This document shows positions 7,407-20,445 of a stretch of DNA of 45,899 nt, in pieces (within the stretch, counting starts at the first letter, position 1; every line of letters starts with the position of its first letter). The position numbers were made by a program, and so were the translations under genes. The notes beneath the pieces were generated by a model. The model saw nothing but the letters and a program-made list of their open reading frames with translations. It was not told the DNA's origin and did no database searches. Source of the stretch: a virus. The stretch is taken from the IMG/VR virus record IMGVR_UViG_3300045988_015578, positions 1-45,899 of that record; one strand, written 5' to 3'.

Positions 7407-7412
7407 AATCAG

Positions 7413-7439: not shown

Positions 7440-7454
7440 AGTGTAAAATTCCTC

Positions 7455-7494: not shown

Positions 7495-7544
7495 ATACTC
7501 AGAAGTGTTACTATGGGGTTTTATAGCTAGTTGGAGGTGGTAAT

Positions 7545-7802
7545 ATGGCGAACTTAAAAGCAGCTACAAGAAAACTTCAAAAAGCTATATTGTCCACCGG
7601 ACTAATCATAAAAATTGGAACATCACAATTCTATAGTCATGAACAGGAACGATTAATTACAGTAACGATCATATCAACACCAGTGTTTAGACCAACAAAA
7701 CGTGGCGAATGGAAAGATTGCGATTATGAAATATTACGAGCTGCATCCCAGTATGATGTGGTCATGTGCCTTAAAGAAATATGGGAGGCGGTCAGAAAAT
7801 GA
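7545..7802 (+). CDS. hypothetical protein preceding the terminase (85 aa)
   Basis: GGAGGTGG RBS; first gene after the late-promoter motif. Confidence 0.6.
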   Translation: MANLKAATRKLQKAILSTGLIIKIGTSQFYSHEQERLITVTIISTPVFRPTKRGEWKDCDYEILRAASQYDVVMCLKEIWEAVRK

Positions 7803-7822
7803 GGATAGACAGAGGTGATTAG

Positions 7823-9445
7823 ATGGACTTAACGCCTAAACAGAAAGCGTTTGCAGATGAATATATCAAGAATGGCGGAAATGCATCTGATGCCGCGAGG
7901 AAAGCCGGATACGCACCTAAGAGCGCTGATGTAATAGGGCGCGAGAACTTACGGAAACCTACGATTTCTGCATATATAGCCGAAAAACAGTCTCTCATCG
8001 AAAAACAAAAAGGCACTGACATCATGTCACTGGCAGAAATTCAGCAACGCCGTTCTATGATCGCAAGAGGTGAGCTGACTGATTCATTCGGATTCGCCCC
8101 GGACTTCTCCGACCAGCTGAAATCTATGAATGATCTGGAAAAGGCATTAAAAATTAAACAAGAGCAGGAAGAAAAGAAAGCAGCAGAGGAAGCTGCTAGA
8201 AATGCGAAGCCGTACCACATGGACCTGTACAACATTCCTGATTGCTTTCACCGGGCTATTAGAGATATTCGAGATAAGGAACATCTGGAGTATGTATTTA
8301 AGGGCGGACGTGGCTCCACGAAATCAACCACTGTTGGAATGACAATTGTGGAGCTGATGAAAAACAACCATGATATTCATGCAGTTGTTTGCCGTAAGGT
8401 CGGGAACACCATTAAAGATTCTGTGTATAACAAAATCAAATGGGCTATTGGAAAGCAGGAATTTACAGAAGAATTCGATTCTAAGTTATCACCTATGGAG
8501 ATTACGCTAAAAGCAACCGGACAAAAGATATACTTCCGTGGTGCTGATGACCCTGACAAAATTAAATCTATCAACCCTGAGTTCGGCTATATCGGCATTC
8601 TCTGGTTCGAGGAATTAGATCAGTTCGCAGGTACTGAGGAAATTCGTAAGATTGAGCAGTCTGCGATTCGTGGCGGCAACCTTGCATGGATATTTAAGAG
8701 CTTCAATCCGCCAAAAACAATGAATAACTGGGCTAATAAGTATGTTCTTGAACCGAAAGAGAACAGAATAGTTCATTCATCAACTTACTTGGACGTGCCA
8801 AAAGGATGGCTGGGGCAGCCATTTATTGACGAAGCAGAGCATCTGAAAGAAGTCAATCCAAACGCTTACGAACATGAATATATGGGAATTGCGAATGGAA
8901 ACGGCGGTAATGTATTTGAATATTTGGAAATCAGAGATATTACAGATGAAGAAATCAGTCACATGGACAAAATATTTCAGGGGTGTGACTGGGGATTTTT
9001 CCCTGATCCGTATGCTTTTATTCGTTTGTATTACAATCATAACACTGAAAAGATATATCTCATTGATGAAATTTACGAAAATAAATGGAGTAATAGGAAA
9101 TCAGCAGACGAGATTCTAAAAAGAAAATATGATGATTATACTATTACTTGCGATTCTGCGGAACCTAAATCAATCAATGATTATAGAGACTTTGGACTTC
9201 CAGCAAGGGGCGCAATAAAAGGGCCTGGAAGTGTGGAGTATTCTATGAAATGGCTTCAGACAAGGACTATCGTTATTGACCCCAAAAGAACGCCTAATGC
9301 TTACAAAGAGTTTTCAGAGTACGAATATGAAAGAGACAAAGATGGAAACGTTATAAGTGGATATCCTGACGAGAACAACCATTTAGTCGATGCCTGCAGA
9401 TACGCAACAGAATCATTGTGGAGAAGAAGGGGTAACAATGCATAA
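7823..9445 (+). CDS. terL: terminase: small-subunit-like HTH domain fused to a PBSX-type large subunit
   Basis: The N-terminal ~130 aa (LTPKQKAFADEYIKNGGNASDAARKAGY) look like a Terminase_2-type TerS. The rest has Walker A GGRGSTKS and PBSX-like TerL motifs. There is no stop between the two parts. Confidence 0.85.
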   Translation: MDLTPKQKAFADEYIKNGGNASDAARKAGYAPKSADVIGRENLRKPTISAYIAEKQSLIEKQKGTDIMSLAEIQQRRSMIARGELTDSFGFAPDFSDQLKSMNDLEKALKIKQEQEEKKAAEEAARNAKPYHMDLYNIPDCFHRAIRDIRDKEHLEYVFKGGRGSTKSTTVGMTIVELMKNNHDIHAVVCRKVGNTIKDSVYNKIKWAIGKQEFTEEFDSKLSPMEITLKATGQKIYFRGADDPDKIKSINPEFGYIGILWFEELDQFAGTEEIRKIEQSAIRGGNLAWIFKSFNPPKTMNNWANKYVLEPKENRIVHSSTYLDVPKGWLGQPFIDEAEHLKEVNPNAYEHEYMGIANGNGGNVFEYLEIRDITDEEISHMDKIFQGCDWGFFPDPYAFIRLYYNHNTEKIYLIDEIYENKWSNRKSADEILKRKYDDYTITCDSAEPKSINDYRDFGLPARGAIKGPGSVEYSMKWLQTRTIVIDPKRTPNAYKEFSEYEYERDKDGNVISGYPDENNHLVDACRYATESLWRRRGNNA

Positions 9446-10890
9446 TGGGACTTATAACAACACTAAAAAGGTGGTTTAACATGATATTCAAAAAACAAGC
9501 CGAAGAGGACTTCAACATCCAGGCAGCAGAATTTCCAGAGATGGAATCACTGATTAACCGGTGCGCGAACATCTACAGAGGTATGCCGGAATGGTTAGAT
9601 GATAAGAATAATATCAAGACGATTAATTTTGCTAAATCTGTCTGCTCAGAGACAGCTCGGCTCGCAACACTGGCGATCGGAATTCAGATTGACGGCTCTG
9701 CAAGGGCAGCATGGCTACAGGAGCAGATCGATAAAGTATATTTCCAGATTCGGCACTGGGTGGAATATGGCTGCGCTTACGGAACGGTGTTCATTAAGCC
9801 GAACGGCGAGAGCCTTGACGTATTCACTCCGGCAGATGTGATTATTGTTGATTACGATAATCAGGAAATCAAAGGGATTATATTTAAAGATTCGTATACA
9901 GTTGGACGAAAATACTACACACGGCTTGAATATCATAGATTTGCTGAGATTACAATAGATGGCGTAACAACTTATCCGTACTATGTTTCCAACAGAGCTT
10001 ATGTATCAAAATCTCCTCAAAGCATCGGAAACAAGATTGACCTTAAACAGACCAAATGGGCTGAACTCATGGCAGACACGCCGCCGATTCTCAAGGCAAA
10101 CGGTGAGAAACTGGACGGACCTCTGTACGGAGTACTGCGGACACCACAGGCGAATAACGTGGATATCAGTACACCACTTGGACTTCCAATATTCGCAGAA
10201 GCTATCGAAGAGCTGAAAGATCTCGACATTGCATATAGCCGTAATGCCGGAGAGATTTTCGATTCTCAGAAGATTGTCCTGGCAGATGATAGACTGCTGA
10301 TGCCAAGCGGTGCACCTGTATCAGCTATGTCGCCACAGGGTATGGAGAACAGACGTAATGAGATGAACTTACCGCACTTTGTCAAGAATGTATTCGGACA
10401 GGTTGAGAAAGAGTTCTATCAGGAAATCAATCCGGTTCTCAACACAGATACCCGTATAAGCGGCATAAATGCCCTTTTAAGCCAGTTAGGGTACAAGATT
10501 GGATTCTCCAACGGGTACTTTGTTTTTAACGAATCTAGCGGCATTCAGACAGCTACAGGAGTAGAAGCAGAACAGCAGAGGACAGTGCAGTTCGTCAAGG
10601 ATGTAAGGGATAAGTTGGAGTCTTGCCTAGATGAAGTTATTTACGCATTGAACGTTTACGCTGATCTGTACGGGCTTGCACCGGTTGGGGCTTATGAAGT
10701 AAATTACGACTTTGGCGATATCCTATATGTGCGTGAAAACGACCGTGCAAGATGGTGGCAGTATGTGACGACTGGAAAGGTTCCGGCATGGATGTACTTC
10801 GTGAAATTCGAGGGAATGACCGAGGAAGAAGCTAAGGCAATGGTTGAAGAAGCCCAGCCAGACGAACCAAAACTGTTTGGAGATGAGTAA
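9445..10890 (+). CDS. portal protein (SPP1 gp6-like)
   Basis: 481 aa, immediately after the terminase, with the acidic C-terminus typical of portals. Confidence 0.8.
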   Translation: MGLITTLKRWFNMIFKKQAEEDFNIQAAEFPEMESLINRCANIYRGMPEWLDDKNNIKTINFAKSVCSETARLATLAIGIQIDGSARAAWLQEQIDKVYFQIRHWVEYGCAYGTVFIKPNGESLDVFTPADVIIVDYDNQEIKGIIFKDSYTVGRKYYTRLEYHRFAEITIDGVTTYPYYVSNRAYVSKSPQSIGNKIDLKQTKWAELMADTPPILKANGEKLDGPLYGVLRTPQANNVDISTPLGLPIFAEAIEELKDLDIAYSRNAGEIFDSQKIVLADDRLLMPSGAPVSAMSPQGMENRRNEMNLPHFVKNVFGQVEKEFYQEINPVLNTDTRISGINALLSQLGYKIGFSNGYFVFNESSGIQTATGVEAEQQRTVQFVKDVRDKLESCLDEVIYALNVYADLYGLAPVGAYEVNYDFGDILYVRENDRARWWQYVTTGKVPAWMYFVKFEGMTEEEAKAMVEEAQPDEPKLFGDE

Positions 10891-10892
10891 TT

Positions 10893-12122
10893 ATGTTAAG
10901 CCCAGAATATTTACGCCGGATAACAGAGGGCAGTGAACAGATTGCGGAAGAACTGCATCAGTATATCATATCCGAGATCGTGTCTCGAATGATGGCAAGA
11001 ATCGGCAGAGGTGAGGATTATATTCTGACCAATGCTGATGCATGGAGAATCAGAACACTACAGGAATCCGGTGAGTTGCTAGAGGATATTCTGGCAGAAT
11101 TATCCAAATACACCAAACGCGAACAGCAAGAACTTCTTGAAGCGTTTGAAGATGCTGGAATCACTGCAATGAACTATGATGATAAAGTATACAAGGCGGC
11201 AGGATTAAGCCCTGTGCCGCTCGAACAGTCTCCAGCTATGATAAGGCTCATGGAACGGAATATGCTTGCGACCATGGGTGAGTGGAAGAACTTTACACGA
11301 ACCACCGCAAGTGCCGCTCAGAGGCTCTATATTGAGCAATGCGACCTTGCCTATAATCATGTAATGACTGGGGCGGTTGGGTATACACAAGCCATCAAAG
11401 AGGCGGTTAATAACGTTGTGAGTGATGGTGTTACGGTCACATATCCATCCGGCAGGCGTGACACTATCGAAACAGCAGTCGCACGTTCTGTCAGAACTGG
11501 AGTGGCACAGGCTACAGGAGATATATCCCTAAAACGCATGGAAGAAATGGACTGGGATTTAGTTCTAGTCAGTGCCCACATGGGAGCCAGAACGGGCGAT
11601 GGCGGCGAGAATCCGGGTAATCACTCATGGTGGCAAGGCAAGATATACTCTCGTTCTGGCAAGAGTAAGAAATTTCCACCGTTCTCATTGACCGGATATG
11701 GAACGGCAAGCGGACTATCAGGTGTAAACTGTCGACATAGCTTTGGAGCCAGTGACGGAGAATTTAATCCTTATGCGGAATTGTCAGCGCAGGATAAAGC
11801 CAACAAAGGTAAACAATACGAAAAAGAACAGCGGCAACGCACTTATGAGCGAAGAATCCGCAAGACGAAGCGTGAAGTTCTCGGAATGCAAGCGGCGGTT
11901 GATAACTGTAAGGACGAACAGACAAGATTTGTACTCCAACAAGACCTTGACCGGAAGTCTTATCTTTTGCAGAAACAAAATGCTGTATACAAAGATTACT
12001 GCAAAGACAATGATCTAAGAGAACTGCAAGACCGGCTCATGATAGCCAAGTGGAATCGTCAGAACGCCGCAAAAGCCAGAGGAGCGGCAAAACGATATAA
12101 GACAGCAAAGGGGATTGACTGA
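10893..12122 (+). CDS. minor head / head-morphogenesis protein (Mu F / SPP1 gp7 family)
   Basis: Its position after the portal and the motifs SAHMGARTGDGGENPGNHSWWQGK and NCRHSF. Confidence 0.8.
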   Translation: MLSPEYLRRITEGSEQIAEELHQYIISEIVSRMMARIGRGEDYILTNADAWRIRTLQESGELLEDILAELSKYTKREQQELLEAFEDAGITAMNYDDKVYKAAGLSPVPLEQSPAMIRLMERNMLATMGEWKNFTRTTASAAQRLYIEQCDLAYNHVMTGAVGYTQAIKEAVNNVVSDGVTVTYPSGRRDTIETAVARSVRTGVAQATGDISLKRMEEMDWDLVLVSAHMGARTGDGGENPGNHSWWQGKIYSRSGKSKKFPPFSLTGYGTASGLSGVNCRHSFGASDGEFNPYAELSAQDKANKGKQYEKEQRQRTYERRIRKTKREVLGMQAAVDNCKDEQTRFVLQQDLDRKSYLLQKQNAVYKDYCKDNDLRELQDRLMIAKWNRQNAAKARGAAKRYKTAKGID

Positions 12123-12505
12123 TGGACAGATGGGAATATTATAATCCGAATCCTGCTGGGAATCGAGTCGGAGATTGTGCTGTCCGGGCAATATGCAAAG
12201 CAACCGGCTTTGATTGGGAAACGGTATTTACCGGACTGATGGTGCAGGCGTGCGCGCTGTCAGATATGCCGAGTGCAAATTATGTCTGGGGAGCGTATCT
12301 CTACAAGCATGGATACAGGCGCAAACTGATAGAACAGTCAGAACGATATATCTATACAGTCAACGACTTTTGCACAGACCATCCGACAGGCACGTACATT
12401 CTCTGCATAGATGGCCATGTGGTGACAGTACAAGATGGTAAATATTATGATACATGGAATAGCGGAAACGAAATACCGATTTATTATTGGGAAAAAAATG
12501 GATAA
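12122..12505 (+). CDS. conserved phage protein, possible papain-like Cys/His peptidase fold
   Basis: The pattern GDCAVRAI...GHVVTV...DTWNSG suggests a Cys-His-Asp/Asn arrangement. The fold assignment is inference. Confidence 0.55.
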   Translation: MDRWEYYNPNPAGNRVGDCAVRAICKATGFDWETVFTGLMVQACALSDMPSANYVWGAYLYKHGYRRKLIEQSERYIYTVNDFCTDHPTGTYILCIDGHVVTVQDGKYYDTWNSGNEIPIYYWEKNG

Positions 12506-12515
12506 ATATCCACTA

Positions 12516-13070
12516 TTATGTTTTATTGTATTTCCACACAAAACCTTTGTGAGTTCGACGTTCACCACGACAGCAACGACTGATGCTATCTTTTCGACCG
12601 TTTACGTGGTCTGCGGCATCTTCTGCGCAACTCCACTCAGCGATAAAATGATTGTTTAAGTCATATTGATAAACAACTTTTGCTCTTGGACTGTTTCCTC
12701 TCTTATAATTTCCATGAGGAGGGACAGAAGCGGAGCGCAATCCTGTATTTATTGCATGAAAAGTGTTTTCTTGTTTCGTGACCCATTCAAGATTATCAAC
12801 AGTATTGTTTTTCTTGTTCCCGTCAATATGATTCACTACTTCTTTTTGTTCCACGTTCGGAATAAATGCCTCTGCAACAAGGCGGTGAACGAGATAGTTC
12901 TTACGTTTGTAATTAACAACAAGTGTTACTCTATCGTAACCATCGTTTTCAAAAGGAGTCAAATACTTGCATCCTTTATTGTAATTTCTCCTTGCACTAA
13001 TAATATTGCCAAGATTGCTTATTTTGTATAATCCTTCATAACCGACAACATCTTTCCAAATTTCTTGCAT
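12516..13070 (-). CDS. HNH homing endonuclease (NUMOD4 + HNH_3 type)
   Basis: WKDVVGYEGLYKISNLGNI is NUMOD4-like and VNHIDGNKKNNTVDNLEW is an HNH motif. The gene is free-standing on the opposite strand. Confidence 0.85.
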   Translation of the reverse strand: MQEIWKDVVGYEGLYKISNLGNIISARRNYNKGCKYLTPFENDGYDRVTLVVNYKRKNYLVHRLVAEAFIPNVEQKEVVNHIDGNKKNNTVDNLEWVTKQENTFHAINTGLRSASVPPHGNYKRGNSPRAKVVYQYDLNNHFIAEWSCAEDAADHVNGRKDSISRCCRGERRTHKGFVWKYNKT

Positions 13071-13213
13071 AAAAATAACACCTGTCCTTTCAGTGTGCGT
13101 GTCCTATTGATAAATGTACGGAAATCTCTAGGACATGAGACTTTCGGGAGCTACCCTATCCGTACACAAATATTATATCACAAATCAATGAAATATTAAA
13201 GAGGTATATCAAT

Positions 13214-13519
13214 ATGCATATTATTGAAGCAATACAAACAATTCTATCAATTTGTGGTGGCATTTCTATCATAGGAGGGGCAGCAGCTGTAATCCTTAAG
13301 TGGATTGCTCCGGCATTCCGACTCAACAAGCGAGTTGAGACACTGGAAGAACATGATAAGCGAGATTACGAGAGCCTTCAGAGGATTGCAGAGCGTGATT
13401 CATTGATTCTGGAAGTGTTGTCAACCATGTTAGACAGCCAGATCAGTGGGAATAATGTTGAGGAATTAAAAAAAACAAAACAGAAGCTTACAAATTATCT
13501 TGCGCAGAATCAACGTTAG
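13214..13519 (+). CDS. single-pass membrane protein with a coiled coil (BhlA/UviB-like architecture)
   Basis: An N-terminal TM helix (ILSICGGISIIGGAAAVILKWI) is followed by a charged helical region. Confidence 0.55.
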   Translation: MHIIEAIQTILSICGGISIIGGAAAVILKWIAPAFRLNKRVETLEEHDKRDYESLQRIAERDSLILEVLSTMLDSQISGNNVEELKKTKQKLTNYLAQNQR

Positions 13520-13539
13520 CATTAATAAGGGGTATGCTC

Positions 13540-13740
13540 ATGAAATTATATGTGTTCACAAAGAAAGATATAGACAGGTTCTTGATAGAGTGTAATTTCA
13601 CACCAGACGAAGAAAGACTGTTCCGGTTGAGATGCCAGGAGCGCACTCTTGAATACTGCGCTGAACAGATGAACGTGAGTATATCCACGGCGAAACGATT
13701 AAGCCGGAGGGTGAACAATAAAATAATCAAAGTGTGCTAA
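13540..13740 (+). CDS. small sigma-70 region-4-like HTH protein
   Basis: LFRLRCQERTLEYCAEQMNVSISTAKRLSRRVNNKI matches the sigma region-4 HTH pattern. The AAGGGG RBS favours ATG 13540. Confidence 0.55.
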   Translation: MKLYVFTKKDIDRFLIECNFTPDEERLFRLRCQERTLEYCAEQMNVSISTAKRLSRRVNNKIIKVC

Positions 13741-13770
13741 AAGGAGAGGCAATTTGCCCCTCCTTCTTTT
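13741..13770. terminator. bidirectional terminator between convergent genes
   Basis: Stem aaggagaggc/gcccctcctt (one mismatch) with T-runs on both strands. Confidence 0.65.
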
Positions 13771-14503
13771 ATACAAAATCTTCTTTTACAACTCTCTCGA
13801 GAAGATTGACTACATACTCTGGAGGATTGCGTTTACCACCCTCCCAGTTCTCAATACTCCTTTTAGGAATACCATATTTTTCAGAAAAAGCTTGCTGTGT
13901 AAGTCCAGATAACGTTCTGATTTTGTGAAAATCAAGAGGATCTGAAGAAACTTTTTTAGGAAACACATCCTCTTCCTTTACCTGATATGTGAAGAATCCC
14001 ATCGAGGATGGAAAAATTCTAAAATAAAATTTTTCATCGTCATCTTCTTCTATCCAGGTTTGCTGTAAAAATATTTTCGGACACCATTCATCTAATGCAA
14101 ACTTTTCATCTGAATCAGAGTAAACAACATAAGAACATAAATTTCCCGTATCTGATTTCATTCTCTTCATTTCGTTATAGATGAATCTAGTCCTGGCATA
14201 TCTGACTATGCTATACGCTTGTTCTGTTCTGAGTTCTGGGAATAAAGCTTCGATTTGTTTATAAATCTTATTCCACAGACATGCATGGTGTTTACTATCT
14301 AATTCAACTGGTATGTCGATATAACCGCTGCTACGAACTGACAAAAATCGGTACACTACATCAATTATCTCCTGATTTCTAACCGGAGGAATTAATTCTG
14401 TATCATCTGGAAAATCAAATGGCAAAAGGTTTGATTTTTCCTGATTCTCGAGATCATGTTTTACCATGCTCAAGAACTCCTTATATCCGTATTCTTTCAG
14501 CAT
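13769..14503 (-). CDS. protein with a C-terminal XRE-type HTH and an unknown ~190-aa N-terminal domain
   Basis: C-terminus reads IRTLSGLTQQAFSEKYGIPKRSIENWEGGKRNPPEYVVNLL. A GGAGGT RBS inside the upstream gene indicates translational coupling. Confidence 0.75.
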   Translation of the reverse strand: MLKEYGYKEFLSMVKHDLENQEKSNLLPFDFPDDTELIPPVRNQEIIDVVYRFLSVRSSGYIDIPVELDSKHHACLWNKIYKQIEALFPELRTEQAYSIVRYARTRFIYNEMKRMKSDTGNLCSYVVYSDSDEKFALDEWCPKIFLQQTWIEEDDDEKFYFRIFPSSMGFFTYQVKEEDVFPKKVSSDPLDFHKIRTLSGLTQQAFSEKYGIPKRSIENWEGGKRNPPEYVVNLLERVVKEDFV

Positions 14504-14504
14504 C

Positions 14505-14948
14505 TTATTTTACCTCCATCTTTTCTTTGTAATCATTCAGAGCTTCCTTGAATTTTCTTTCGCAAATATTGTTTTCACAATCAATATCACTATTTAACTC
14601 AACGTCTAATTCTCTTGGACTGTAAGCACGATAACGGTTTTCAATAAACCATTTTGCTTCTTTGATCTCATAAATAGTTTCCATGGCTTTTTTCATGCGC
14701 TCCGGCATTTTTTTTCTGCCTTTAGATTCATGAAAATTAATGCAACTGTTTCCATACTCGATCATCTTCTTACGGATATCCTCAGCCCAGGCAATCTGTT
14801 TTGGGCTGCCAACCAGTTCTGGTAATTCTTTACACATATCTTTTGCTTCCTTCCATGCTTTCTTGAGACCGGAGGAAATTGTCATTGCAGATTTCTTAAC
14901 CAGCTCCCATGCTCTTTTCATTATTACTGATAAATTATATTTCTTCAT
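14505..14948 (-). CDS. helical K/E-rich protein of unknown function (147 aa)
   Basis: AAGGAGG lies 7 nt upstream of ATG 14948. The track start 15113 runs into the promoter region. Confidence 0.7.
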   Translation of the reverse strand: MKKYNLSVIMKRAWELVKKSAMTISSGLKKAWKEAKDMCKELPELVGSPKQIAWAEDIRKKMIEYGNSCINFHESKGRKKMPERMKKAMETIYEIKEAKWFIENRYRAYSPRELDVELNSDIDCENNICERKFKEALNDYKEKMEVK

Positions 14949-14990
14949 GTCTTTTTCCTCCTTAGATTCCTTGTTCCTCTTTCTGATATT

Positions 14991-15019
14991 ATAATACCAC
15001 TCAACGGGTGATATGTCAA
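14991..15019 (-). promoter_or_regulatory. near-consensus sigma-A promoter for the antisense two-gene operon
   Basis: On the - strand: TTGACA, a 17-nt spacer, then TATTAT. Two CAAAAAAGT repeats lie upstream. Confidence 0.7.
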
Positions 15020-15096
15020 CACTTTTTTGATACTTTTTTGAACTTCTTGGATTAATACTTATGTGTAAAAATATAATCAGAAAGGTGGTGTGTAAG

Positions 15097-15567
15097 ATGG
15101 CATTATATAACAATCCTTATCAATATAGTTTTGGTGTTCCGGGACAGATGAATCAATTTCAGCAACAGCCTGTCCAGATGCCAGCTCAACCAGTGCAGCA
15201 ACCCCAGCAAAATAATAATGGTATCCTGTGGGTCTCCGGTGAAGTAGGCGCAAAATCCTATCTGGTAGCACCTGGAACAAGTGTTTTACTGATGGATTCA
15301 GAGAGTGAAAAGTTCTACATAAAATCCACAGATGTTTCTGGTATGCCACAGCCGTTACGGACGTTTGAGTATCATGAAGTAGGCACTCAGATGCCGCCTA
15401 AACAGCCTGTTCAGAACATGGACAGTAAATACGTCACCAGACAGGAATACGACGATTTAAAGGGCAAATACGAAGCTATCATAAACCGATTAAATTCTTT
15501 TTCTGAGCCTGTTAGGGCTAATACCGCACAGGAATCAGCGACCAAGGGAGGAAACGCAGATGAGTAA
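15097..15567 (+). CDS. Q/P/N-rich N-terminus plus a conserved beta-rich core; unknown function (cassette gene A)
   Basis: AAAGGTGG RBS. N-terminus reads NNPYQYSFGVPGQMNQFQQQPVQMPAQPVQQPQQNNN. Confidence 0.7.
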   Translation: MALYNNPYQYSFGVPGQMNQFQQQPVQMPAQPVQQPQQNNNGILWVSGEVGAKSYLVAPGTSVLLMDSESEKFYIKSTDVSGMPQPLRTFEYHEVGTQMPPKQPVQNMDSKYVTRQEYDDLKGKYEAIINRLNSFSEPVRANTAQESATKGGNADE

Positions 15568-15781
15568 TCCATTATTTAACGCGCTTGGCGGTGGGATGCC
15601 GCAGGGAAATGGGCCAATGCAGATGATACAACAATTTATGCAGTTTAAACAGAATTTTAAGGGAGACCCGAAAGCAGAAGTTGAGAAGATGTTACAATCT
15701 GGGAAGATTTCCCAACAGCAGCTTAACCAGGTTCAGCAAATGGCAGGGCAATTCCAGCACATGCTGAAAGGAATGAAATAG
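15560..15781 (+). CDS. small Q-rich protein (cassette gene B)
   Basis: Its ATG overlaps the stop of gene A. Sequence includes MQMIQQFMQFKQNF...QQQLNQVQQMAGQFQ. Confidence 0.65.
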   Translation: MSNPLFNALGGGMPQGNGPMQMIQQFMQFKQNFKGDPKAEVEKMLQSGKISQQQLNQVQQMAGQFQHMLKGMK

Positions 15782-15834
15782 TACATTACAATCTGGCCAG
15801 ATTGATGTAAATATACAAAAAGGAGATTATAACT

Positions 15835-16614
15835 ATGGATGGAAATTATAGTTTAGCAGATATTGCCGCTGCTACTGGAAACGGTAGAAATAATGACGGC
15901 ATGTTTGGTGGAGATGGTAGCTGGTGGATTATTGTTTTATTCATTTTTGCTTTCTTCGGATGGGGAAACAACGGCTGGGGCAATAATGGAAACGGCGGCG
16001 GATATGTAGCCACAGCAGCTACTCAGGCAGACATTCAGAGAGGATTTGACAACTCCGCAGTGATCAGCAAGCTTGACGGAATCAATAGTGGTCTGTGTGA
16101 TGGCTTCTATGCCATGAATAATGGTATGCTTACCGGATTCAATGGAATCAACACAAACATCATGCAGACTGGCTTCGGTATCCAGCAGGCTATTAATGCT
16201 GACACTGTAGCTAATATGCAGAATACCAATGCGCTCCAGGCACAGCTTGCAAACTGCTGCTGTGAAACAAGGGAAGCAATCCAGGGTGTAAACTACAATA
16301 TGGCACAGAATACCTGTGCATTGCAGAACACCATGAACAGCAACACAAGAGATATTATCGACAGCCAGAATGCAGGGACAAGAGCGATTCTTGACTATCT
16401 CTGCAATGAAAAGATTTCTAACTTGCAGGCTGAAAACAATGACCTCAGACGTGCTGCATCTCAGGATCGCCAGAGTGCACTTCTCACAACTGCAATGGCT
16501 TCACAGACACAGCAGCTTATTAATGCGATTAATCCGGCACCGATTCCGGCATATCAGGTTCCTAACCCGAACACATATTACGGATGCGGATGCAACACCG
16601 GATGTAATTGTTAA
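15835..16614 (+). CDS. G/N/W-rich membrane-anchored protein with a Cys-rich C-terminus (cassette gene C)
   Basis: AAAGGAG RBS. Features: a WWIIVLFIFAFFGWGNNGWGNNGNGGG segment, an internal CCCE, and the C-terminus YYGCGCNTGCNC. Confidence 0.7.
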   Translation: MDGNYSLADIAAATGNGRNNDGMFGGDGSWWIIVLFIFAFFGWGNNGWGNNGNGGGYVATAATQADIQRGFDNSAVISKLDGINSGLCDGFYAMNNGMLTGFNGINTNIMQTGFGIQQAINADTVANMQNTNALQAQLANCCCETREAIQGVNYNMAQNTCALQNTMNSNTRDIIDSQNAGTRAILDYLCNEKISNLQAENNDLRRAASQDRQSALLTTAMASQTQQLINAINPAPIPAYQVPNPNTYYGCGCNTGCNC

Positions 16615-16678
16615 CAACTTCATATCGAGAGTATCTTTCGATTGATTTCGGATGTCGGCTTATGCCGTATTACACAGA

Positions 16679-16703
16679 GGGGCAGGCTGAGACCTGTCCT
16701 TTT
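16679..16703 (+). terminator. rho-independent terminator after cassette gene C
   Basis: Stem gggcagg/cctgtcc (one G.U pair) followed by TTTT. Confidence 0.55.
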
Positions 16704-16725
16704 GTGATATGAAAGGAGTATTTTT

Positions 16726-17148
16726 ATGGCAGAATTCACAAATGTAGCTGCTCAGACTGTAGCAGCAAATGGAAACGTAGTATTTTCAAACACAGCAGTT
16801 AAAGGTTCTAACTGTATTCAGCACAGAGAGGGAAGCGGAATTATTACGCTGAGAGGACTGACTAATCAGTGCAAAGCGAGATTCTTCGTGGATTTTTCTG
16901 GCAATATCGCAATTCCAGCAGGCGGCACTGCCGGAGCTATTTCTCTGGCTATTGCAATCTCTGGCGAACCTGTATTATCTTCACAGATGATTTCCACACC
17001 GACAGCAGTAGACCAGTATAACAATGTGTCCTCTGGTATCTATATTGATGTACCACGCGGATGTTGCGTTAATATTGCAGTAGAGAATACCAGTGATCAG
17101 GCTATTTCTGTTGCAAATGCGAACATTGTTGTAACCAGAGAAGCATAG
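16726..17148 (+). CDS. small beta-rich protein resembling BclA-C-terminal / C1q-TNF-like domains (cassette gene D)
   Basis: AAAGGAG RBS. The sequence alternates hydrophobic residues in a beta-strand pattern (for example GAISLAIAISGEPV and NANIVVTR). The fold assignment is inference. Confidence 0.65.
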   Translation: MAEFTNVAAQTVAANGNVVFSNTAVKGSNCIQHREGSGIITLRGLTNQCKARFFVDFSGNIAIPAGGTAGAISLAIAISGEPVLSSQMISTPTAVDQYNNVSSGIYIDVPRGCCVNIAVENTSDQAISVANANIVVTREA

Positions 17149-17159
17149 GAGGTGTGATT

Positions 17160-17714
17160 ATGAGAGACATTAAAGACTTATGCGCAAGAATCGAAGATGA
17201 GCTTTCCAAAATCGCTGATAATGGACTGACCACCGGAAATCTGGAAATGACATACAAGTTGATTGACATGTACAAAGATATCAAGAATACGCAGTACTGG
17301 GATAAGAAAGTAGAGTATTACAACGCTGTCCTTGATGAAATGCGTAGTGGATACAATGACGATTACAGCGAGCGCGGAAGAAAACGCGACAGTATGGGGA
17401 GATACAGCTCAAATGACGGCAGAATGATGCCGGATTACGATCGGGGCAGTTCTTATGCCAGACGTGGGGAACATTACGTCAGAGGGCATTACAGCCGTTC
17501 TGATGGACGGGATGCTTATGACGATTACATGACGCAGAAGCAAAGCTATCGTTCCGGCAAGTCTGAAGACTGCAAGAGGAAGATGCTTGCCGCTCTGGAA
17601 GAACATCTGGACGAACTTACAACAGAAATGAGCGATATGTCCAAGGATGCAGAGTGCCGGGAAGAACGTGATCTTGTCAAGAGATACGTGGAAAAGCTCC
17701 GGGATATGCTCTAA
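17160..17714 (+). CDS. helical protein with an R/D/Y/S-rich disordered centre (cassette gene E)
   Basis: AGGAGG lies 7 nt upstream of ATG 17160. The centre reads RGRKRDSMGRYSSNDGRMMPDYDRGSSYARRGEHYVRGHYSRSDGRDAYDDY. Confidence 0.7.
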   Translation: MRDIKDLCARIEDELSKIADNGLTTGNLEMTYKLIDMYKDIKNTQYWDKKVEYYNAVLDEMRSGYNDDYSERGRKRDSMGRYSSNDGRMMPDYDRGSSYARRGEHYVRGHYSRSDGRDAYDDYMTQKQSYRSGKSEDCKRKMLAALEEHLDELTTEMSDMSKDAECREERDLVKRYVEKLRDML

Positions 17715-17721
17715 TTAGCTA

Positions 17722-17761
17722 AAACATGTACCACAACTTTTTGGATACTTTGTGGTAAAAT
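17722..17761 (+). promoter_or_regulatory. late-promoter motif, copy 2
   Basis: The same 20-mer as 7455-7474, followed at identical spacing by TGTGG and the -10 hexamer TAAAAT. Confidence 0.6.
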
Positions 17762-18062
17762 ATATTCATAGGGAAGATTCGGAAGATTCGTAAGTGGTTG
17801 ACGCCACTTGACATAGACATTTTTTCATTGATTCCTCCTTTCTTGGGTACGTGTCCTTAACAGAAACAGGTTCGGGCGGAATCTGGAGGTTGAAAAGCGG
17901 ATGCAATTTCCGACACGTATCATTACTGTCTATATGACTTGCTCGCTCGCATAGGCAGTACGCACCTCCTTGTAAAAGGTAAATGGGCGGACGGATGCCC
18001 GAAACAACTCGTGGCAGGCATGACACGTTAAACACCTTGCTAACCCGGGAATCCGGGTTATG

Positions 18063-18131
18063 TGGAATGTACGCTAGTGGAAAACTGACAGAGTCGCGCT
18101 CTGGTCTCCGGTTCGATTCCGGGCGTTCCGC
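18063..18131 (+). tRNA. tRNA-like element 1 (non-canonical; probably not a decoding tRNA)
   Basis: Acceptor tggaatg/cgttccg (two G.U pairs), a D-loop AGTGG, and a T-arm tccgg-TTCGATT-ccggg. The anticodon arm is cagag-tcgcg-ctctg, with only a 5-nt loop. Total length is 69 nt. Confidence 0.5.
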
Positions 18132-18422
18132 TTTAATCCGCTTAGAGTTAAGCTGTTTGTATACAGGCGGTCTATGTCTCAGGTGGATTTACGCATGAGC
18201 GTAAACGTACAACTCACTAGGCGTTTGCGTAAAAAACTTTTTAGAGAGATGAGACCACGGGCCGTGAGAAGTGATAGTCGGCAATTCTAAAAGAACCATC
18301 TAGTTCATGTGTTTTACGATGGAAAGGTTAATGCTTATCTGGATATTTTCATCCGGTCCGAAAGCATGTGATGTGGGAATCAACCCAGTTTCTTTTCAGA
18401 GAACTGGCCGTTATAGGCGGTA

Positions 18423-18490
18423 CGGAATGTAGCTCAGTGGTAGATCGCACTGTAAATGTGAGGTCGCAGGTTCGATTCCTGCCTTTCCGA
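18423..18490 (+). tRNA. tRNA-like element 2 (short anticodon arm; the best loop reading, CU-GUA-AA, would be Tyr)
   Basis: Acceptor cggaatg/ctttccg (one T-T mismatch), TAGCTCAGTGGTAGATCG D-arm, and a perfect T-arm gcagg-TTCGATT-cctgc. The region between the D- and T-arms is 4 nt shorter than in a standard tRNA. Confidence 0.6.
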
Positions 18491-18568
18491 TTACCTTGCC
18501 AGTGGTCTAACTGGCTTAATCCATTTACCTGCGGCGGCAGGTCAATAAACACGACCAGGAGGATGTAT

Positions 18569-19201
18569 ATGCAGAAACTTATTGACACACTTAAATCATT
18601 TGGAATTGAAATCCCGGAGGACAAGCAGGCAGATGTGAAGAAAGCACTCTCTGAGCATTACAAGAATGCCAAAGAAGTAGCGAAAACCCTGTCAAAAGTT
18701 GAGGGAGAACGTGACGACTGGAAAGAACGCGCCGAGACAGCAGAAGAAACCTTGAAAGGGTTTGACGGTATCGACCCGGCAAATATCCAGACAGAGCTTG
18801 CCGGATGGAAGAAAAAAGCCGAGGATGCAGAGAAAGAATTCAATGCAAAAATCTACGACCGCGATTTTTCAGATGCGCTTAAAACAGCACTTGATGATGT
18901 TAAGTTTTCCAGTGAAGCTGCAAAGAAATCTGTTATGGCAGACATCAAGGAAGCAGGATTGAAGCTGAAAGACGGTAAAATCCTTGGACTGAATGATTTG
19001 ATTGAGCAGATGAAGCAGTCTGACGCATCCGCTTTTGTAGATGAATCTCAGCAACAGGCTCAGCAGAATCAGGCAAGGTTTACTACTCATGTTGGACAGC
19101 AGCAGACACCGGGGAACATGACAAAGAAAGATATCGAAGCAATCAAAGACCCGTCCGAGAGACAGGCAGCAATTGCTCAGAATATCCAGTTATTCCAGTG
19201 A
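18569..19201 (+). CDS. scaffolding protein (phage GP20-like)
   Basis: AGGAGG lies 6 nt upstream of ATG 18569. The protein is helical and E/K-rich and sits before the capsid gene. The track start 18368 runs into the tRNA-like element. Confidence 0.8.
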   Translation: MQKLIDTLKSFGIEIPEDKQADVKKALSEHYKNAKEVAKTLSKVEGERDDWKERAETAEETLKGFDGIDPANIQTELAGWKKKAEDAEKEFNAKIYDRDFSDALKTALDDVKFSSEAAKKSVMADIKEAGLKLKDGKILGLNDLIEQMKQSDASAFVDESQQQAQQNQARFTTHVGQQQTPGNMTKKDIEAIKDPSERQAAIAQNIQLFQ

Positions 19202-19212: not shown

Positions 19213-19278
19213 GACTATATGCCAGAGTATAGCCGCTAACCCAACGCCTTAATAGTTATGGGTAGAAAGGATTTTTTT
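19213..19278 (+). promoter_or_regulatory. conserved 5' leader element, copy 1 (upstream of the major capsid gene)
   Basis: A hairpin whose 3' arm is TATAGCC, then GCTAACC...GCCTT...AGTTA..GG.AGAAAGGA...TATG. It shares the 13-mer ATAGCCGCTAACC with 22795-22807. Confidence 0.6.
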
Positions 19279-20445
19279 ATGCCAGCAAAAACAAATCTTA
19301 TTATGACTAATGATATTCATGTCACAGCACGTGAGATTGATTTTGTTACCAGATTCGAAAGAAACTGGGAACACTTACGTGAAATCCTTGGTATCATGCG
19401 TCCTATCAAAAAACAGCCGGGTGCTGTACTGAAATCTAAGTACGCAGAGGGTACTTTACAGAGTGGACTTGTTGGTGAGGGTGAGGAAATCCCTTACAGC
19501 AAGTTTACTGTAAAAGAAAAGAACTATGCGGAAATGACTATCGAAAAGTACGCAAAGGCTGTATCTATCGAAGCAATCAAGGATCACGGTTATGAGAACG
19601 CTGTTCAGATGACTGATGACGAATTCCTTTTCCAGCTTCAGACTGATGTTACCGGCAGATTCTATGACTATCTGAAAACCGGTACGCTTACTTCCACAGA
19701 AACTACATTCCAGATGGCTCTGGCAATGGCTAAAGGCCGTGTTGAGAACAAATTCAAACAAATGCACAGAAACGTGACTGGCGTTGTTGGATTCGTGAAC
19801 ATTCTGGACGTATATGAATATCTCGGAGCAGCTGAGATCACCATTCAGAACCAGTTCGGATTCCAGTACATGAAGGACTTTATGGGATTTAATACAATCT
19901 TCTTACTGTCCGACAGCGAGATTCCAAGAGGGCAGGTTATCGCTACTCCTGTCGAGAACATCGTTCTGTACTATGTTGACCCGAACGAATCTGACTTCGC
20001 AAGAGCAGGTCTTGTATACACCGTATCTGGTGAGACAAACCTGATCGGATTCCATACGCAGGGCAACTACCACACAGCAGTGTCTGAGGCGTTCGCGGTT
20101 ATGGGACTTACTCTTTTTGCGGAGTACATTGATGCAATTGCAGTAATTACCATTGATGAGACACCAGCACTTGGCACTCTGGTAGTAACATCTGCGGAAG
20201 GAACAGCAACTGGTGATACAAAAATCACTGTAAATCCGGCTAAGGAAAATGCCGGCAATGTGTATAAATACAAAGTTGCAGCAGAAGCAGTAGCTGTTGG
20301 ATATGGACAGAATCTCAGAAACTGGAGTACTTGGGATGGAAAAGCCGATATCACAGCAGCAACCGGACAGAAGATCACAGTGGTTGAGTGTGATGGAACA
20401 TACAAAGCACTGAATGCCGGAAGTGCAAGCGTGACAGCAAAATGA
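19279..20445 (+). CDS. major capsid protein with a C-terminal Ig-like domain
   Basis: Follows the scaffold gene. The GAAAGGA RBS favours ATG 19279. The C-terminal ~90 aa are beta-rich and Big-like. Confidence 0.8.
   Translation: MPAKTNLIMTNDIHVTAREIDFVTRFERNWEHLREILGIMRPIKKQPGAVLKSKYAEGTLQSGLVGEGEEIPYSKFTVKEKNYAEMTIEKYAKAVSIEAIKDHGYENAVQMTDDEFLFQLQTDVTGRFYDYLKTGTLTSTETTFQMALAMAKGRVENKFKQMHRNVTGVVGFVNILDVYEYLGAAEITIQNQFGFQYMKDFMGFNTIFLLSDSEIPRGQVIATPVENIVLYYVDPNESDFARAGLVYTVSGETNLIGFHTQGNYHTAVSEAFAVMGLTLFAEYIDAIAVITIDETPALGTLVVTSAEGTATGDTKITVNPAKENAGNVYKYKVAAEAVAVGYGQNLRNWSTWDGKADITAATGQKITVVECDGTYKALNAGSASVTAK

What the first reader, a model, noticed from the sequence alone, without database searches (positions are those of the whole stretch)
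17722..18568. An ~800-nt ORF-poor, hairpin-dense RNA region behind a late promoter: candidate large phage ncRNA
About 800 nt separate late-promoter copy 2 from the scaffold RBS, and no ORF in it has an RBS. The ORFs in the track here are Arg/Gly/Cys-rich shadows.

The region is more GC-rich than its flanks and contains many perfect stems:
- 17792-97/17804-09
- 18041-48/18053-60 (8 bp)
- 18387-92/18404-09
- 18498-503/18510-15
- 18528-33/18538-43

It also has a tandem 9-mer (gaagattcg x2, 17773-90) and two tRNA-like modules. The two halves share a layout of about 290 nt followed by a hairpin with GGAAUC in or near the loop and then a tRNA-like element. They also share short strings (CCGAAA..GTG), which hints at a tandem duplication.

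Large ornate RNAs of the ROOL and GOLLD classes are known to reside in Firmicutes prophages, often next to or containing tRNAs. This region fits that context, but it could also be a new RNA class or a processed structured leader for the capsid operon.
Basis: partly seen in the sequence, partly recalled or inferred. Interest (0 to 1): 0.85.

Follow-up and report, generated by a model that had tools for sequence, protein, structure and literature searches.

The report
Capsid-operon leader with RAGATH-21 and tRNA-like RNAs
The 850-base "gene-free" stretch is not one giant RNA: it is the long leader of a gut phage's capsid operon, made of a known small structured RNA (RAGATH-21), two tRNA-shaped elements that cannot decode, and two conserved hairpins, at a site where related phages carry ordinary tRNAs or even a ROOL RNA.

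Summary
The non-coding gap is real: 17715-18568, between a gene of unknown function and the head scaffolding gene.

It is a mosaic of separable modules, not one large ornate RNA:
- a promoter-like repeat (17719-17768);
- a full-length RAGATH-21 motif (17846-17921, 90.1 bits against a cut-off of 70.3);
- a conserved pre-tRNA segment ending in an 8-bp hairpin;
- tRNA-like element 1 (18062-18132), whose stems covary but whose "anticodon" loop has only 5 nt;
- a 290-nt spacer;
- tRNA-like element 2 (18423-18490, 68 nt, shortened anticodon arm);
- two covarying hairpins just before the scaffold ribosome-binding site.

ROOL and GOLLD models do not match the window.

In more than 100 related phages of Lachnospiraceae, RAGATH-21 lies upstream of a GP20-type scaffolding gene wherever that gene could be identified. 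The space between the two holds a variable cargo: canonical tRNAs (Met, Tyr, Ile and others), tRNA-likes, skipping-rope RNA and, in four relatives, a true ROOL RNA.

The block 18008-18492 is also shared at 92-95% identity with an unrelated ~75-kb phage. There it sits in a tRNA island and ends at a terminator.

My best reading is a co-transcribed leader that host RNase P and RNase Z cut at the tRNA-shaped elements. This is a new instance of known kinds and is moderately interesting.

The parts
17719..17768 (+). Promoter-like 50-nt repeat (copy 2), with an extended -10 TGGTAAAAT at 17752-17760 and an upstream conserved box AAACATGTACCACAACTTTT
   Evidence: Direct repeat of 7452-7501, which lies ahead of the terminase operon, at 78% identity. 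The strict -35/-10 scan does not call it. Function as a late promoter is inferred.
17773..17809 (+). 5' leader: tandem 9-mer (17773-17790) and a 6-bp hairpin (17792-17809)
   Evidence: Read from the sequence. The 9-mer is single-copy in relatives.
17820..17845 (+). U-run followed by a pyrimidine tract, GAUUCCUCCUUUCUU. CCUCC is at 17834-17838. The tract resembles the anti-Shine-Dalgarno 3' end of 16S rRNA.
   Evidence: CCTCC lies within ~45 nt 5' of RAGATH-21 in 92 of 99 unique loci and in 0 of 99 control windows. It is also kept in the alternative leaders that lack RAGATH-21.
17846..17921 (+). RAGATH-21 RNA motif (Rfam RF03097), full length
   Evidence: 90.1 bits against a gathering score of 70.3, E = 1.5e-16, model positions 1-76, no non-canonical pairs. 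MFE z = -3.45.
17925..17969 (+). Hairpin (17925-33 with 17951-59) followed by a second anti-SD-like CACCUCC (CCUCC at 17965-17969)
   Evidence: A hairpin of different sequence followed by (A)CACCUCCUU is present in all three leader subtypes and in the alternative leader.
18008..18060 (+). Conserved pre-tRNA segment ending in the 8-bp hairpin UAACCCGG-GAAU-CCGGGUUA (18041-18060)
   Evidence: Nearly invariant in 55 unique leaders. It is the 5' boundary of the block shared with the ~75-kb phage.
18062..18132 (+). tRNA-like element 1: acceptor stem, T arm with GGUUCGAUUCC, a weak D arm, and an 'anticodon' arm of 5 bp with a 5-nt loop. No encoded CCA.
   Evidence: Not called by ARAGORN or by the Rfam tRNA model. 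Across 11 distinct homologues, 92% of cells are paired, 8 of 17 pairs carry compensatory changes and 0 of 500 shuffles reach this. The MFE fold is a cloverleaf.
18133..18422 (+). Inter-tRNA spacer. 18133-18199 is the shared trailer of tRNA-like 1, ~18217-18379 is an orphan segment, and 18380-18422 is the leader of tRNA-like 2.
   Evidence: The orphan part is absent from all viral loci fetched. It is present at more than 95% identity in 25 metagenome contigs. z = -1.12 and there is no double-sided covariation.
18423..18490 (+). tRNA-like element 2: 68 nt, shortened anticodon arm, no long variable arm, no encoded CCA
   Evidence: Rfam tRNA 47.3 bits, with 4 anticodon-stem positions deleted. ARAGORN calls it 'tRNA-Tyr gta' at 68 nt. 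The homologous position in the ~75-kb phage holds a canonical 72-nt tRNA-Thr(UGU) scoring 73.1 bits.
18498..18542 (+). Two conserved hairpins of the scaffold 5' UTR: HP1 18498-18515 and HP2 18527-18542, joined by UUAAUCCAUUUA
   Evidence: In 37 distinct sequences, 99.1% of cells are paired, 7 of 12 pairs carry compensatory changes and 0 of 500 shuffles reach this. No Rfam family matches.
18557..19201 (+). Shine-Dalgarno AGGAGG (18557-18562) and the head scaffolding gene (18569-19201). The major head protein gene follows at 19258-20445.
   Evidence: phrog_194 head scaffolding protein, E = 5.7e-22, and phrog_544 major head protein. Homologues carry PF06810 Phage_GP20.

Best explanation
The region is the long 5' leader of the late scaffold and capsid operon of a ~45.8-kb temperate phage of Lachnospiraceae. 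It also serves as a slot for non-coding RNA cargo.

Proposed course of events:
1. Transcription starts at the promoter-like repeat (17719-17768).
2. It runs through an anti-SD-like pyrimidine tract, RAGATH-21, a hairpin with a second anti-SD-like tract, tRNA-like element 1, a 290-nt spacer and tRNA-like element 2.
3. It continues without a predicted terminator into the scaffolding and major head genes.

The two tRNA-shaped elements keep the acceptor and T-arm features that RNase P, RNase Z and the CCA-adding enzyme read. Their anticodon arms cannot decode. I infer that they act mainly as processing signals, in the manner of 'tRNA punctuation'.

Host RNase P and RNase Z would cut at their ends. 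That would release a ~290-nt 5' RNA carrying RAGATH-21, the tRNA-likes themselves and the spacer RNA. It would leave the capsid mRNA with a new 5' end at about 18491, directly in front of two conserved hairpins that could shield it from 5' exonuclease.

Shown here: the identity and boundaries of the modules, their independent gain and loss, and the covariation of tRNA-like 1 and of HP1/HP2.

Inferred: co-transcription, cleavage by RNase P and RNase Z, a stabilising role for HP1/HP2, and any role of RAGATH-21 or the CCUCC tracts.
For: Modules of the window:
- RAGATH-21 scores 90.1 bits.
- tRNA-like 1 keeps its acceptor, 'anticodon' and T stems through compensatory changes (8 of 17 pairs, 0 of 500 shuffles). 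Its loop is only 5 nt, and ARAGORN and Rfam reject it as a tRNA.
- tRNA-like 2 has a truncated anticodon arm.

The leader-to-mRNA junction:
- Whatever tRNA occupies the last slot, its 3' end is followed by the same (A/U)UUACC, then HP1, HP2 and the SD.
- HP1 and HP2 covary.
- No + strand terminator-like site or second promoter-like site lies between 17768 and 18569.

Survey of relatives:
- In 105 unique viral loci and 12 genome loci, RAGATH-21 lies 80-950 nt upstream of a GP20-type scaffolding gene in every locus where the downstream gene could be identified. 81 of the 105 have at least one tRNA in between.
- The same holds in Dulem virus 35, which was retrieved through the protein and not through the RNA.
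- tRNAs are inserted at different points of an otherwise identical leader (L010 against L099).
- The slot also holds ROOL, skipping-rope and GP20-b in relatives.
- In about 30 sister phages RAGATH-21 is replaced, in the same frame of flanking elements, by a 49-nt element made of an acceptor stem, a small hairpin and a T arm. This suggests that the two elements do the same job.

Established knowledge: tRNAs embedded in longer transcripts are excised by RNase P and RNase Z. Examples are the phage T4 tRNA cluster, mitochondrial transcripts and MALAT1/mascRNA.
Against: - There are no transcript data, so the start site, co-transcription and cleavage are all unproven.
- tRNA-like 2 looks like a damaged copy of a normal tRNA: a canonical tRNA-Thr sits at the same place in the ~75-kb phage. 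It could simply be a pseudogene.
- Some relatives have no tRNA at all between RAGATH-21 and the scaffold gene (the MKTEEL group, 93 nt). Processing at tRNAs therefore cannot be essential to the leader.
- L184 lacks the central element entirely.
- In the ~75-kb phage the same cassette ends at a terminator and is not an mRNA leader. The cassette therefore has a life of its own.
- The function of RAGATH-21 is unknown. No paper in the library mentions it.
- The RAGATH-21 survey was seeded with an exact core pattern, which biases it toward close variants.
Confidence: 0.55

Rival explanations
1. The region is an ordinary phage tRNA island that happens to lie in the capsid leader. The tRNAs serve decoding or counter-defence by replacing host tRNAs cut by anticodon nucleases. 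In this particular phage both copies are decaying pseudogenes and the spacer is junk.
For: - Relatives carry canonical tRNA-Met(CAU), Tyr(GUA), Ile(UAU), Asn, Gln, Thr and Val in the same slots.
- tRNA-like 2 aligns to a canonical tRNA-Thr(UGU) in the ~75-kb phage.
- In that phage the cassette lies in a tRNA island next to Tad2-like (Thoeris anti-defence), Bro-N/ANT and RtcB tRNA-ligase genes.
- The spacer shows no structural signal.
Against: - tRNA-like 1 is not decaying at random. Its three stems are kept by compensatory changes, and the 5-nt loop is kept in two unrelated phage lineages.
- Short-anticodon-arm variants of 68-69 nt recur with different stem sequences: CAC/GUG in the window and L006, and GCU/AGC in L020, L109 and L115.
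- The spacer is more than 95% conserved across lineages whose flanks are unrelated.
Confidence: 0.25
2. RAGATH-21 with its two flanking CCUCC tracts is a cis-acting regulatory leader of the scaffold and capsid operon. It could work by masking the downstream Shine-Dalgarno sequence with the anti-SD-like tracts, or by processive antitermination. On this reading the tRNAs are passengers.
For: - RAGATH-21 is invariably placed in the 5' leader of GP20 scaffolding genes, even at 29% protein identity.
- CCUCC lies 5' of the motif in 92 of 99 loci against 0 of 99 controls, and a second CACCUCCUU follows a covarying hairpin.
- The MFE fold pairs 17833-17839 with the scaffold SD at 18558-18564.
- A curated cis-regulatory motif, GP20-b, occupies the same UTR in relatives.
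- A terminator-like hairpin plus U-run precedes the CCUCC in divergent groups.
Against: - CCUCC and GGAGG never vary, so no pairing can be tested by covariation.
- About 730 nt and two tRNA-like elements separate the tract from the SD here.
- RAGATH-21 is dispensable in sister phages that have the same scaffold gene.
- Rfam classes RAGATH-21 as a gene (sRNA), not as cis-regulatory.
Confidence: 0.12
3. The whole ~800 nt, or its 290-nt spacer, is a single large structured ncRNA. This would be a ROOL- or GOLLD-like RNA or a new class.
For: - The slot does host ROOL in four relatives.
- The spacer lies between two tRNA-like elements, as ROOL does.
- The spacer is more than 95% conserved in 25 contigs of two phage types.
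- Hairpins are enriched in the region.
Against: - There is no ROOL, GOLLD or other large-RNA hit in the window at E <= 10, and no BLAST similarity to the relatives' ROOL.
- Modules are gained and lost independently.
- The spacer's z-score is -1.12 and it has no double-sided compensatory changes.
- Relatives such as L149 lack ~165 nt of the spacer.
Confidence: 0.06
4. The region encodes small proteins: a leader peptide MQFP... that starts inside RAGATH-21, a 20-aa minus-strand ORF with a perfect RBS at 17828-17766, or the 38-71-aa ORFs.
For: - GGAGG-N11-AUG/GUG is invariant inside RAGATH-21.
- The minus strand reads GAAAGGAGGAAUCA-AUG at 17842-17826.
Against: - The MQFP ORF varies from 11 to 50 codons with unrelated sequence after codon 4.
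- The minus-strand ORF has no start codon in the L099 group, although the CCUCC is kept there.
- The other ORFs overlap tRNA-like elements and are broken by indels in relatives.
Confidence: 0.02

Closest known systems
RAGATH-21 RNA motif (Rfam RF03097; found by the Breaker laboratory in a search for RNAs near genes associated with twister and hammerhead ribozymes)
   Same: 17846-17921 matches the whole model well above its cut-off. All four helices are present, and so are the conserved CCUUAA.AGAAAC and GGAGGUUGAAAAGCGGAUGCAAUUUCCG strings. It lies in a phage late region.
   Different: Nothing differs in the motif itself. The surroundings are new description: conserved CCUCC tracts on both sides, constant position in the leader of GP20 scaffolding genes, and replacement by a minimal tRNA-like element in sister phages. 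Its function remains unknown.
ROOL and GOLLD RNAs in phage and prophage tRNA islands
   Same: The genomic niche is the same: a prophage of Firmicutes, next to tRNAs. ROOL occupies this very slot in L201, L064, L059 and L086.
   Different: The window has no ROOL or GOLLD match. The longest unexplained piece is 290 nt against ~580 nt for ROOL, and it has no supported structure.
Phage tRNA gene clusters with extra stable tRNA-like RNAs (T4 tRNA region with RNAs C and D); tRNA punctuation of mitochondrial transcripts; MALAT1/mascRNA
   Same: tRNA-shaped elements embedded in a longer transcript, which RNase P and RNase Z can excise. Some of them do not decode. This comparison rests on my own knowledge and on inference.
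   Different: Here the elements lie inside the 5' leader of a capsid mRNA. Processing has not been demonstrated.
GP20-b RNA (Rfam RF03003), a cis-regulatory candidate upstream of Phage_GP20 genes
   Same: It occupies the same UTR, directly before the scaffold SD, in relatives (L099, Ruminococcus phage RG-TP1). Like HP1/HP2 it is two small hairpins followed by an A-rich linker.
   Different: The window's HP1/HP2 gives no GP20-b hit even at E <= 10, and its sequence is different. It appears to be an undescribed analogue.
5' stem-loop and SD-like mRNA stabilisers of Firmicutes (ermC and aprE leaders, cryIIIA STAB-SD, phage SP82 leader)
   Same: Hairpins close to a (processed) 5' end upstream of a strongly expressed gene. 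This comparison is an inference.
   Different: Not tested. Here the 5' end would be made by tRNA processing.

Membership tests
RAGATH-21 (RF03097) | Covariance-model score at or above the curated gathering score (70.3 bits) over the full model | tested here: met
   90.1 bits, model positions 1-76 of 76, E = 1.5e-16.
RAGATH-21 (RF03097) | P1 enclosing three hairpins, with the conserved junction and loop nucleotides | tested here: met
   The alignment shows no non-canonical pair, and all upper-case consensus positions are matched. The MFE fold reproduces P1, P2 and P4.
RAGATH-21 (RF03097) | Location near phage-type genes that are elsewhere associated with twister or hammerhead ribozymes | tested here: inconclusive
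   It lies in a phage late operon upstream of a GP20 scaffolding gene. No twister or hammerhead was found in the window or in the sampled loci.
ROOL (RF03087) | Match to the ~574-position covariance model | tested here: not met
   No hit in the window at the gathering score or at E <= 10 in 17600-18700. The same search finds ROOL at 371-384 bits in L201 and L064. There is no BLAST similarity to the window.
GOLLD | Match to the Rfam GOLLD model; size above 800 nt | tested here: not met
   No hit. No single module exceeds 290 nt.
Canonical (decoding) tRNA - element 2, 18423-18490 | tRNA model and ARAGORN detection | tested here: met
   Rfam tRNA 47.3 bits against a cut-off of 29. ARAGORN calls tRNA-Tyr(gta).
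Canonical (decoding) tRNA - element 2, 18423-18490 | 5-bp anticodon stem with a 7-nt loop that does not clash with the D stem. For a bacterial tRNA-Tyr, also a long variable arm. | tested here: not met
   The element is 68 nt. Four anticodon-stem positions are deleted in the model alignment. The stem is 3 bp (CAC/GUG) if the D stem is kept. There is no long variable arm, whereas true tRNA-Tyr in this slot is 85-92 nt (L004).
Canonical (decoding) tRNA - element 1, 18062-18132 | tRNA model or ARAGORN detection; 7-nt anticodon loop | tested here: not met
   Not reported by either tool. The loop is 5 nt (UCGCG) on a covarying 5-bp stem.
tRNA-like structure (acceptor stem plus T arm fold) | 7-bp acceptor stem stacked on a 5-bp T stem with a UUCGAUU-type loop, conserved by covariation | tested here: met
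   Element 1: acceptor 97% paired, T stem 100% paired with 4 of 5 pairs compensatory. Element 2: acceptor and T arm align to the tRNA model.
tRNA-like processing signal (substrate of RNase P and RNase Z) | Cleavage at the 5' and 3' borders in vivo or in vitro | not testable with these tools
   Needs end-mapping or enzyme assays.
GP20-b (RF03003) | Match to the model in the scaffold 5' UTR | tested here: not met
   No hit at E <= 10 in the window. The model scores 40.9-44.9 bits in L099 and L247.

The most novel reading that the evidence does not exclude
The leader could be a programmed RNA-processing array built from tRNA-derived elements that no longer decode.
- tRNA-like 1 (5-nt loop) and the 68-nt short-arm class would be maintained 'punctuation' or decoy RNAs that spread between unrelated phages as a cassette.
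- RAGATH-21 is 76 nt with a cloverleaf topology (one closing helix, three hairpins, the last abutting the closing helix), and a minimal acceptor/T-arm element can take its place. It would then be a tRNA mimic read by the same host enzymes.
- The excised 5' RNA, with its two 16S-like CCUCC tracts, or the 290-nt spacer, would act as a phage small RNA.
Probability: 0.2. Interest if true: 0.7.

Novelty: new member of a known kind. Interest (0 to 1): 0.4.

Why it matters
RAGATH-21, ROOL and skipping-rope are structured RNAs without a known function.

This locus family shows that they, ordinary tRNAs and non-decoding tRNA look-alikes are interchangeable cargo at one defined place. That place is the leader of the scaffold and capsid operon of very common human-gut Lachnospiraceae phages.

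This gives a concrete and testable setting. Cultured lysogens exist, for example Enterocloster hominis CLA-SR-H021 and Blautia sp. MSJ-19. In them one could ask whether these RNAs are released by tRNA-processing enzymes and what they do late in infection.

For this window alone the result is mostly clarifying. The supposed large RNA dissolves into known and tRNA-related parts.

Tried and rejected
- Rfam scans for ROOL, GOLLD, self-cleaving ribozymes and riboswitches, at the gathering score and at E <= 10. Only RAGATH-21 and one tRNA passed.
- A leader peptide starting at the invariant GGAGG-N11-AUG inside RAGATH-21. Rejected because its length and sequence are not conserved.
- A minus-strand 20-aa ORF with a perfect RBS at 17828-17766. 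Rejected because no start codon exists in the L099 group, where the CCUCC persists.
- Pairing of the flanking CCUCC tracts with the GGAGG inside RAGATH-21. Unlikely, because both tracts persist in alternative leaders whose central element has no GGAGG.
- A sigma-54 or sigma-70 promoter in the conserved 18008-18060 segment. The spacing does not fit (read by eye; one search finds none).
- Structure in the 290-nt spacer. z = -1.12, and only one-sided transitions occur among 20 sequences.
- Similarity of the orphan segment 18217-18379 to anything else in the window, in the viral loci or in the relatives' ROOL. None was found.
- A search for twister or hammerhead in the same slot of more distant scaffold homologues. 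None was found in the few records available, which instead had RAGATH-21, GP20-b or a tRNA.
- Literature on RAGATH-21. No paper in the library mentions it. The supplements of the discovery paper are not held.
Full report
**What the window is**

The window is a complete, circularly permuted phage genome of about 45.8 kb: bases 1-99 repeat at 45801-45899. PHROG scans identify these genes:
- large terminase, 7823-9445;
- portal, 9445-10890;
- minor head protein, 10893-12122;
- head scaffolding protein, 18569-19201 (phrog_194);
- major head protein, 19258-20445 (phrog_544).

Homologues of the scaffold carry Pfam PF06810, Phage_GP20. Between the minor head gene and the scaffold gene lies a 6.4-kb block of genes with no assigned function, some on the minus strand. 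The finding covers the gap between the last of these genes (stop codon at 17714) and the scaffold start codon.

**Check of the observation**

The gap is real, and no ORF in it is conserved.

The 'late promoter copy 2' is one of two copies of a 50-nt motif, at 7452-7501 and 17719-17768. The copies are 78% identical and each has an extended -10. Copy 1 follows a terminator and leads into the terminase operon through a short UTR.

Three of the five listed stems are exact. Two are offset by 1-2 nt. One further 7-bp stem, at 18188-18205, was missed.

Perfect hairpins are enriched: 6 observed against 1.6 +/- 1.25 in shuffles, with 3 of 500 shuffles reaching 6. A coding stretch of the same length can reach the same count.

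The GC excess over the flanks is marginal. The two 'halves' share only their tRNA-like modules.

**What is there**

An Rfam scan of the whole window gives two hits:
- RAGATH-21 at 17846-17921, 90.1 bits against a cut-off of 70.3;
- a tRNA at 18423-18490, 47.3 bits.

A permissive scan of 17600-18700 adds nothing credible. It finds no ROOL, GOLLD or ribozyme. ARAGORN calls only the second element, as a 68-nt 'tRNA-Tyr'.

**Comparative evidence from viral contigs**

Six human-gut phage contigs in GenBank share the region. L001 and L002 lack window 18072-18423.

A scan of viral contigs with the RAGATH-21 core pattern returned 120 loci. In the 105 unique ones, RAGATH-21 lies 93-950 nt upstream of a scaffolding gene in essentially every locus. 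Three scaffold sequence groups occur: MQKLIDTLKSFG..., MKTEELKAQGLTEEQ... and MQNIEQIL.... Of the 105 loci, 81 have at least one ARAGORN tRNA in between: Met-CAU 43, Tyr-GUA 26, Ile-UAU 19, and also Asn, Gln, Thr, Ala, Val and Ser.

The MKTEEL group has no tRNA. L010 has the same leader as that group, with a tRNA-Val inserted 5 nt after RAGATH-21.

Twelve genome contigs place these elements in Enterocloster, Blautia, Faecalimonas, Lachnoclostridium, Mediterraneibacter, Eisenbergiella and Ruminococcus. Where the downstream gene could be called, the arrangement is the same.

Dulem virus 35 was found through its scaffold protein, which is 29% identical, and not through the RNA. It has RAGATH-21 80 nt before the scaffold gene.

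RAGATH-21 is therefore a constant leader element of GP20 scaffolding genes, and the tRNAs are variable insertions.

**The slot carries other RNAs**

Eighty loci were retrieved through near-identical scaffold proteins. About 45 share the window's leader. About 30 carry a different leader of ~265 nt in the same frame. That alternative leader has:
- its own TGnTATAAT promoter;
- a hairpin, a U-rich run and a CCUCC tract;
- a 49-nt element consisting of an acceptor-like stem, a small hairpin and a canonical T arm (Rfam tRNA 19.4 bits, with the anticodon arm deleted);
- a hairpin followed by CACCUCCUU;
- the shared 18000-18060 segment.

L184 lacks the central element altogether.

Four relatives (L201, L064, L059, L086) carry a full-length ROOL RNA of 371-384 bits between tRNAs in this slot. 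L022 carries a skipping-rope RNA. L099 and Ruminococcus phage RG-TP1 carry the GP20-b motif directly before the scaffold gene.

**The tRNA-like elements**

Element 1 (18062-18132) has an acceptor stem, a T arm with GGUUCGAUUCC, a weak D arm and an 'anticodon' arm of 5 bp with a 5-nt loop.
- In 11 distinct homologues, 92% of cells are paired and 8 of 17 pairs carry compensatory changes. The T stem is 100% paired, with 4 of its 5 pairs compensatory. No shuffle out of 500 reaches these values.
- Variants exist that keep only the acceptor stem, one hairpin and the T arm (the L008 type).

Element 2 (18423-18490) keeps a normal acceptor stem, D arm, variable loop and T arm, but its anticodon stem is only 3 bp.
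- The same 68-69-nt design recurs with other stem sequences in L006 and in L020, L109 and L115.
- At the homologous site of another phage there is a canonical 72-nt tRNA-Thr(UGU).

Neither element encodes CCA.

**The cassette moves between phages**

A pattern taken from the segment with no viral homologue (18217-18379) found 25 metagenome contigs.

In 22 of them only window 18008-18492 is shared, at 92-95% identity. These contigs belong to a different phage of about 75 kb. In that phage:
- the block lies in a tRNA island (Gln, Met, element 1, Thr);
- the block is followed by an intrinsic terminator;
- the neighbouring genes are Tad2-like, Bro-N/ANT and RtcB.

The 290-nt spacer is more than 95% conserved. 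It has no structural signal: z = -1.12 and only one-sided changes.

**The junction to the mRNA**

Whatever tRNA comes last, it is followed by UUACC, HP1 (18498-18515), UUAAUCCAUUUA, HP2 (18527-18542), an A-rich linker and the SD. In 37 distinct sequences both hairpins are 99% paired, with 7 of 12 pairs compensatory. No Rfam family covers them.

**Unexplained conserved tracts**

A CCUCC tract that resembles the 3' end of 16S rRNA lies just 5' of RAGATH-21 in 92 of 99 unique loci and in none of the control windows. A second tract follows a covarying hairpin 3' of the motif.

Both tracts persist in leaders that lack RAGATH-21. Their partner is therefore not the GGAGG inside the motif. Pairing with the scaffold SD is predicted by the MFE fold, but it cannot be tested because both sequences are invariant.

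**Interpretation**

The best-supported reading is a co-transcribed, modular leader. Its tRNA-shaped elements would be excised by RNase P and RNase Z, which would free the RAGATH-21-bearing 5' RNA and leave a hairpin-protected capsid mRNA.
- Shown: the identities and boundaries of the modules, and the covariation.
- Inferred: the transcription pattern, the processing and its consequences.

The main rival is a plain tRNA island, with a decoding or counter-defence role, that is decaying in this phage. The reading as a single large ncRNA is not supported for this window, although the niche is right.

**Verdict**

This is a new member of known kinds: a RAGATH-21 instance within a phage tRNA and ncRNA island. 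The side observations are useful, and the interest is moderate.

Noticed in passing
window 1-99 and 45801-45899: An exact 99-nt terminal repeat. The window is a circularly permuted, complete phage genome of ~45.8 kb.
   Followed up: partly
window 7452-7501 and 17719-17768: Two copies of a 50-nt promoter-like motif: the box AAACATGTACCACAACTTTT followed by an extended -10. One copy lies ahead of the terminase operon and one ahead of the capsid leader. This suggests a shared late activator site.
   Followed up: partly
L201 782-1343; L064 8634-9194; L059 ~4220-4771; L086 ~7049-7602: Full-length ROOL RNA (371-384 bits) sits between tRNAs in the same slot upstream of a 97-99% identical scaffold gene. 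In L064 it is downstream of RAGATH-21.
   Followed up: yes
L149 832-1096 (about 30 loci, e.g. L162, L201): An alternative leader in which RAGATH-21 is replaced by a 49-nt tRNA-like element without an anticodon arm (L149 963-1011). The replacement is framed by the same CCUCC tracts and hairpins. The P1 sequences and the CUUUAACGGAAAG string resemble those of RAGATH-21.
   Followed up: partly
window 17834-17838 and 17965-17969: Two CCUCC tracts that resemble the 3' end of 16S rRNA flank RAGATH-21 and are conserved across very divergent leaders. Their partner is unknown.
   Followed up: partly
L233 (oriented copy) 6512-12120; cassette at 7927-8419: In an unrelated ~75-kb gut phage, the block corresponding to window 18008-18492 lies in a tRNA island that ends with a terminator. 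A Tad2-like (Thoeris anti-defence) gene lies upstream, and Bro-N/ANT and RtcB tRNA-ligase genes lie downstream.
   Followed up: partly
L001 1851-1924; L095 and related loci (first tRNA slot): The tRNA-Met(CAU) genes in this slot have A or G instead of the near-universal U at position 33 (anticodon loops CACAUAG and CGCAUAG). This may be anticodon-loop remodelling.
   Followed up: no
L022 10362-10445; L099 6416-6479; L247 1707-1770: A skipping-rope RNA lies between two tRNAs in the slot. The GP20-b motif lies between RAGATH-21 and the scaffold start, and also before the scaffold gene of Ruminococcus phage RG-TP1.
   Followed up: partly
L246 1644-1775 (Dulem virus 35, PP511522.1): The 'hypothetical protein' CDS XCD05100.1 annotated in GenBank coincides with a RAGATH-21 RNA (1645-1721, 83.9 bits). 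It is probably a false gene call.
   Followed up: no
window 12123-17714: A 6.4-kb block splits the head-gene cluster between the minor head and scaffolding genes. It contains three minus-strand ORFs and three conserved PHROG families of unknown function, including a Gly/Asn/Cys-rich 259-aa protein at 15835-16614.
   Followed up: no
window 17842-17766, minus strand: A perfect RBS (GAAAGGAGG) lies 5 nt before an ATG that opens a 20-codon ORF antisense to the leader. It is not conserved outside the close group and is probably a by-product of the CCUCC tract.
   Followed up: yes
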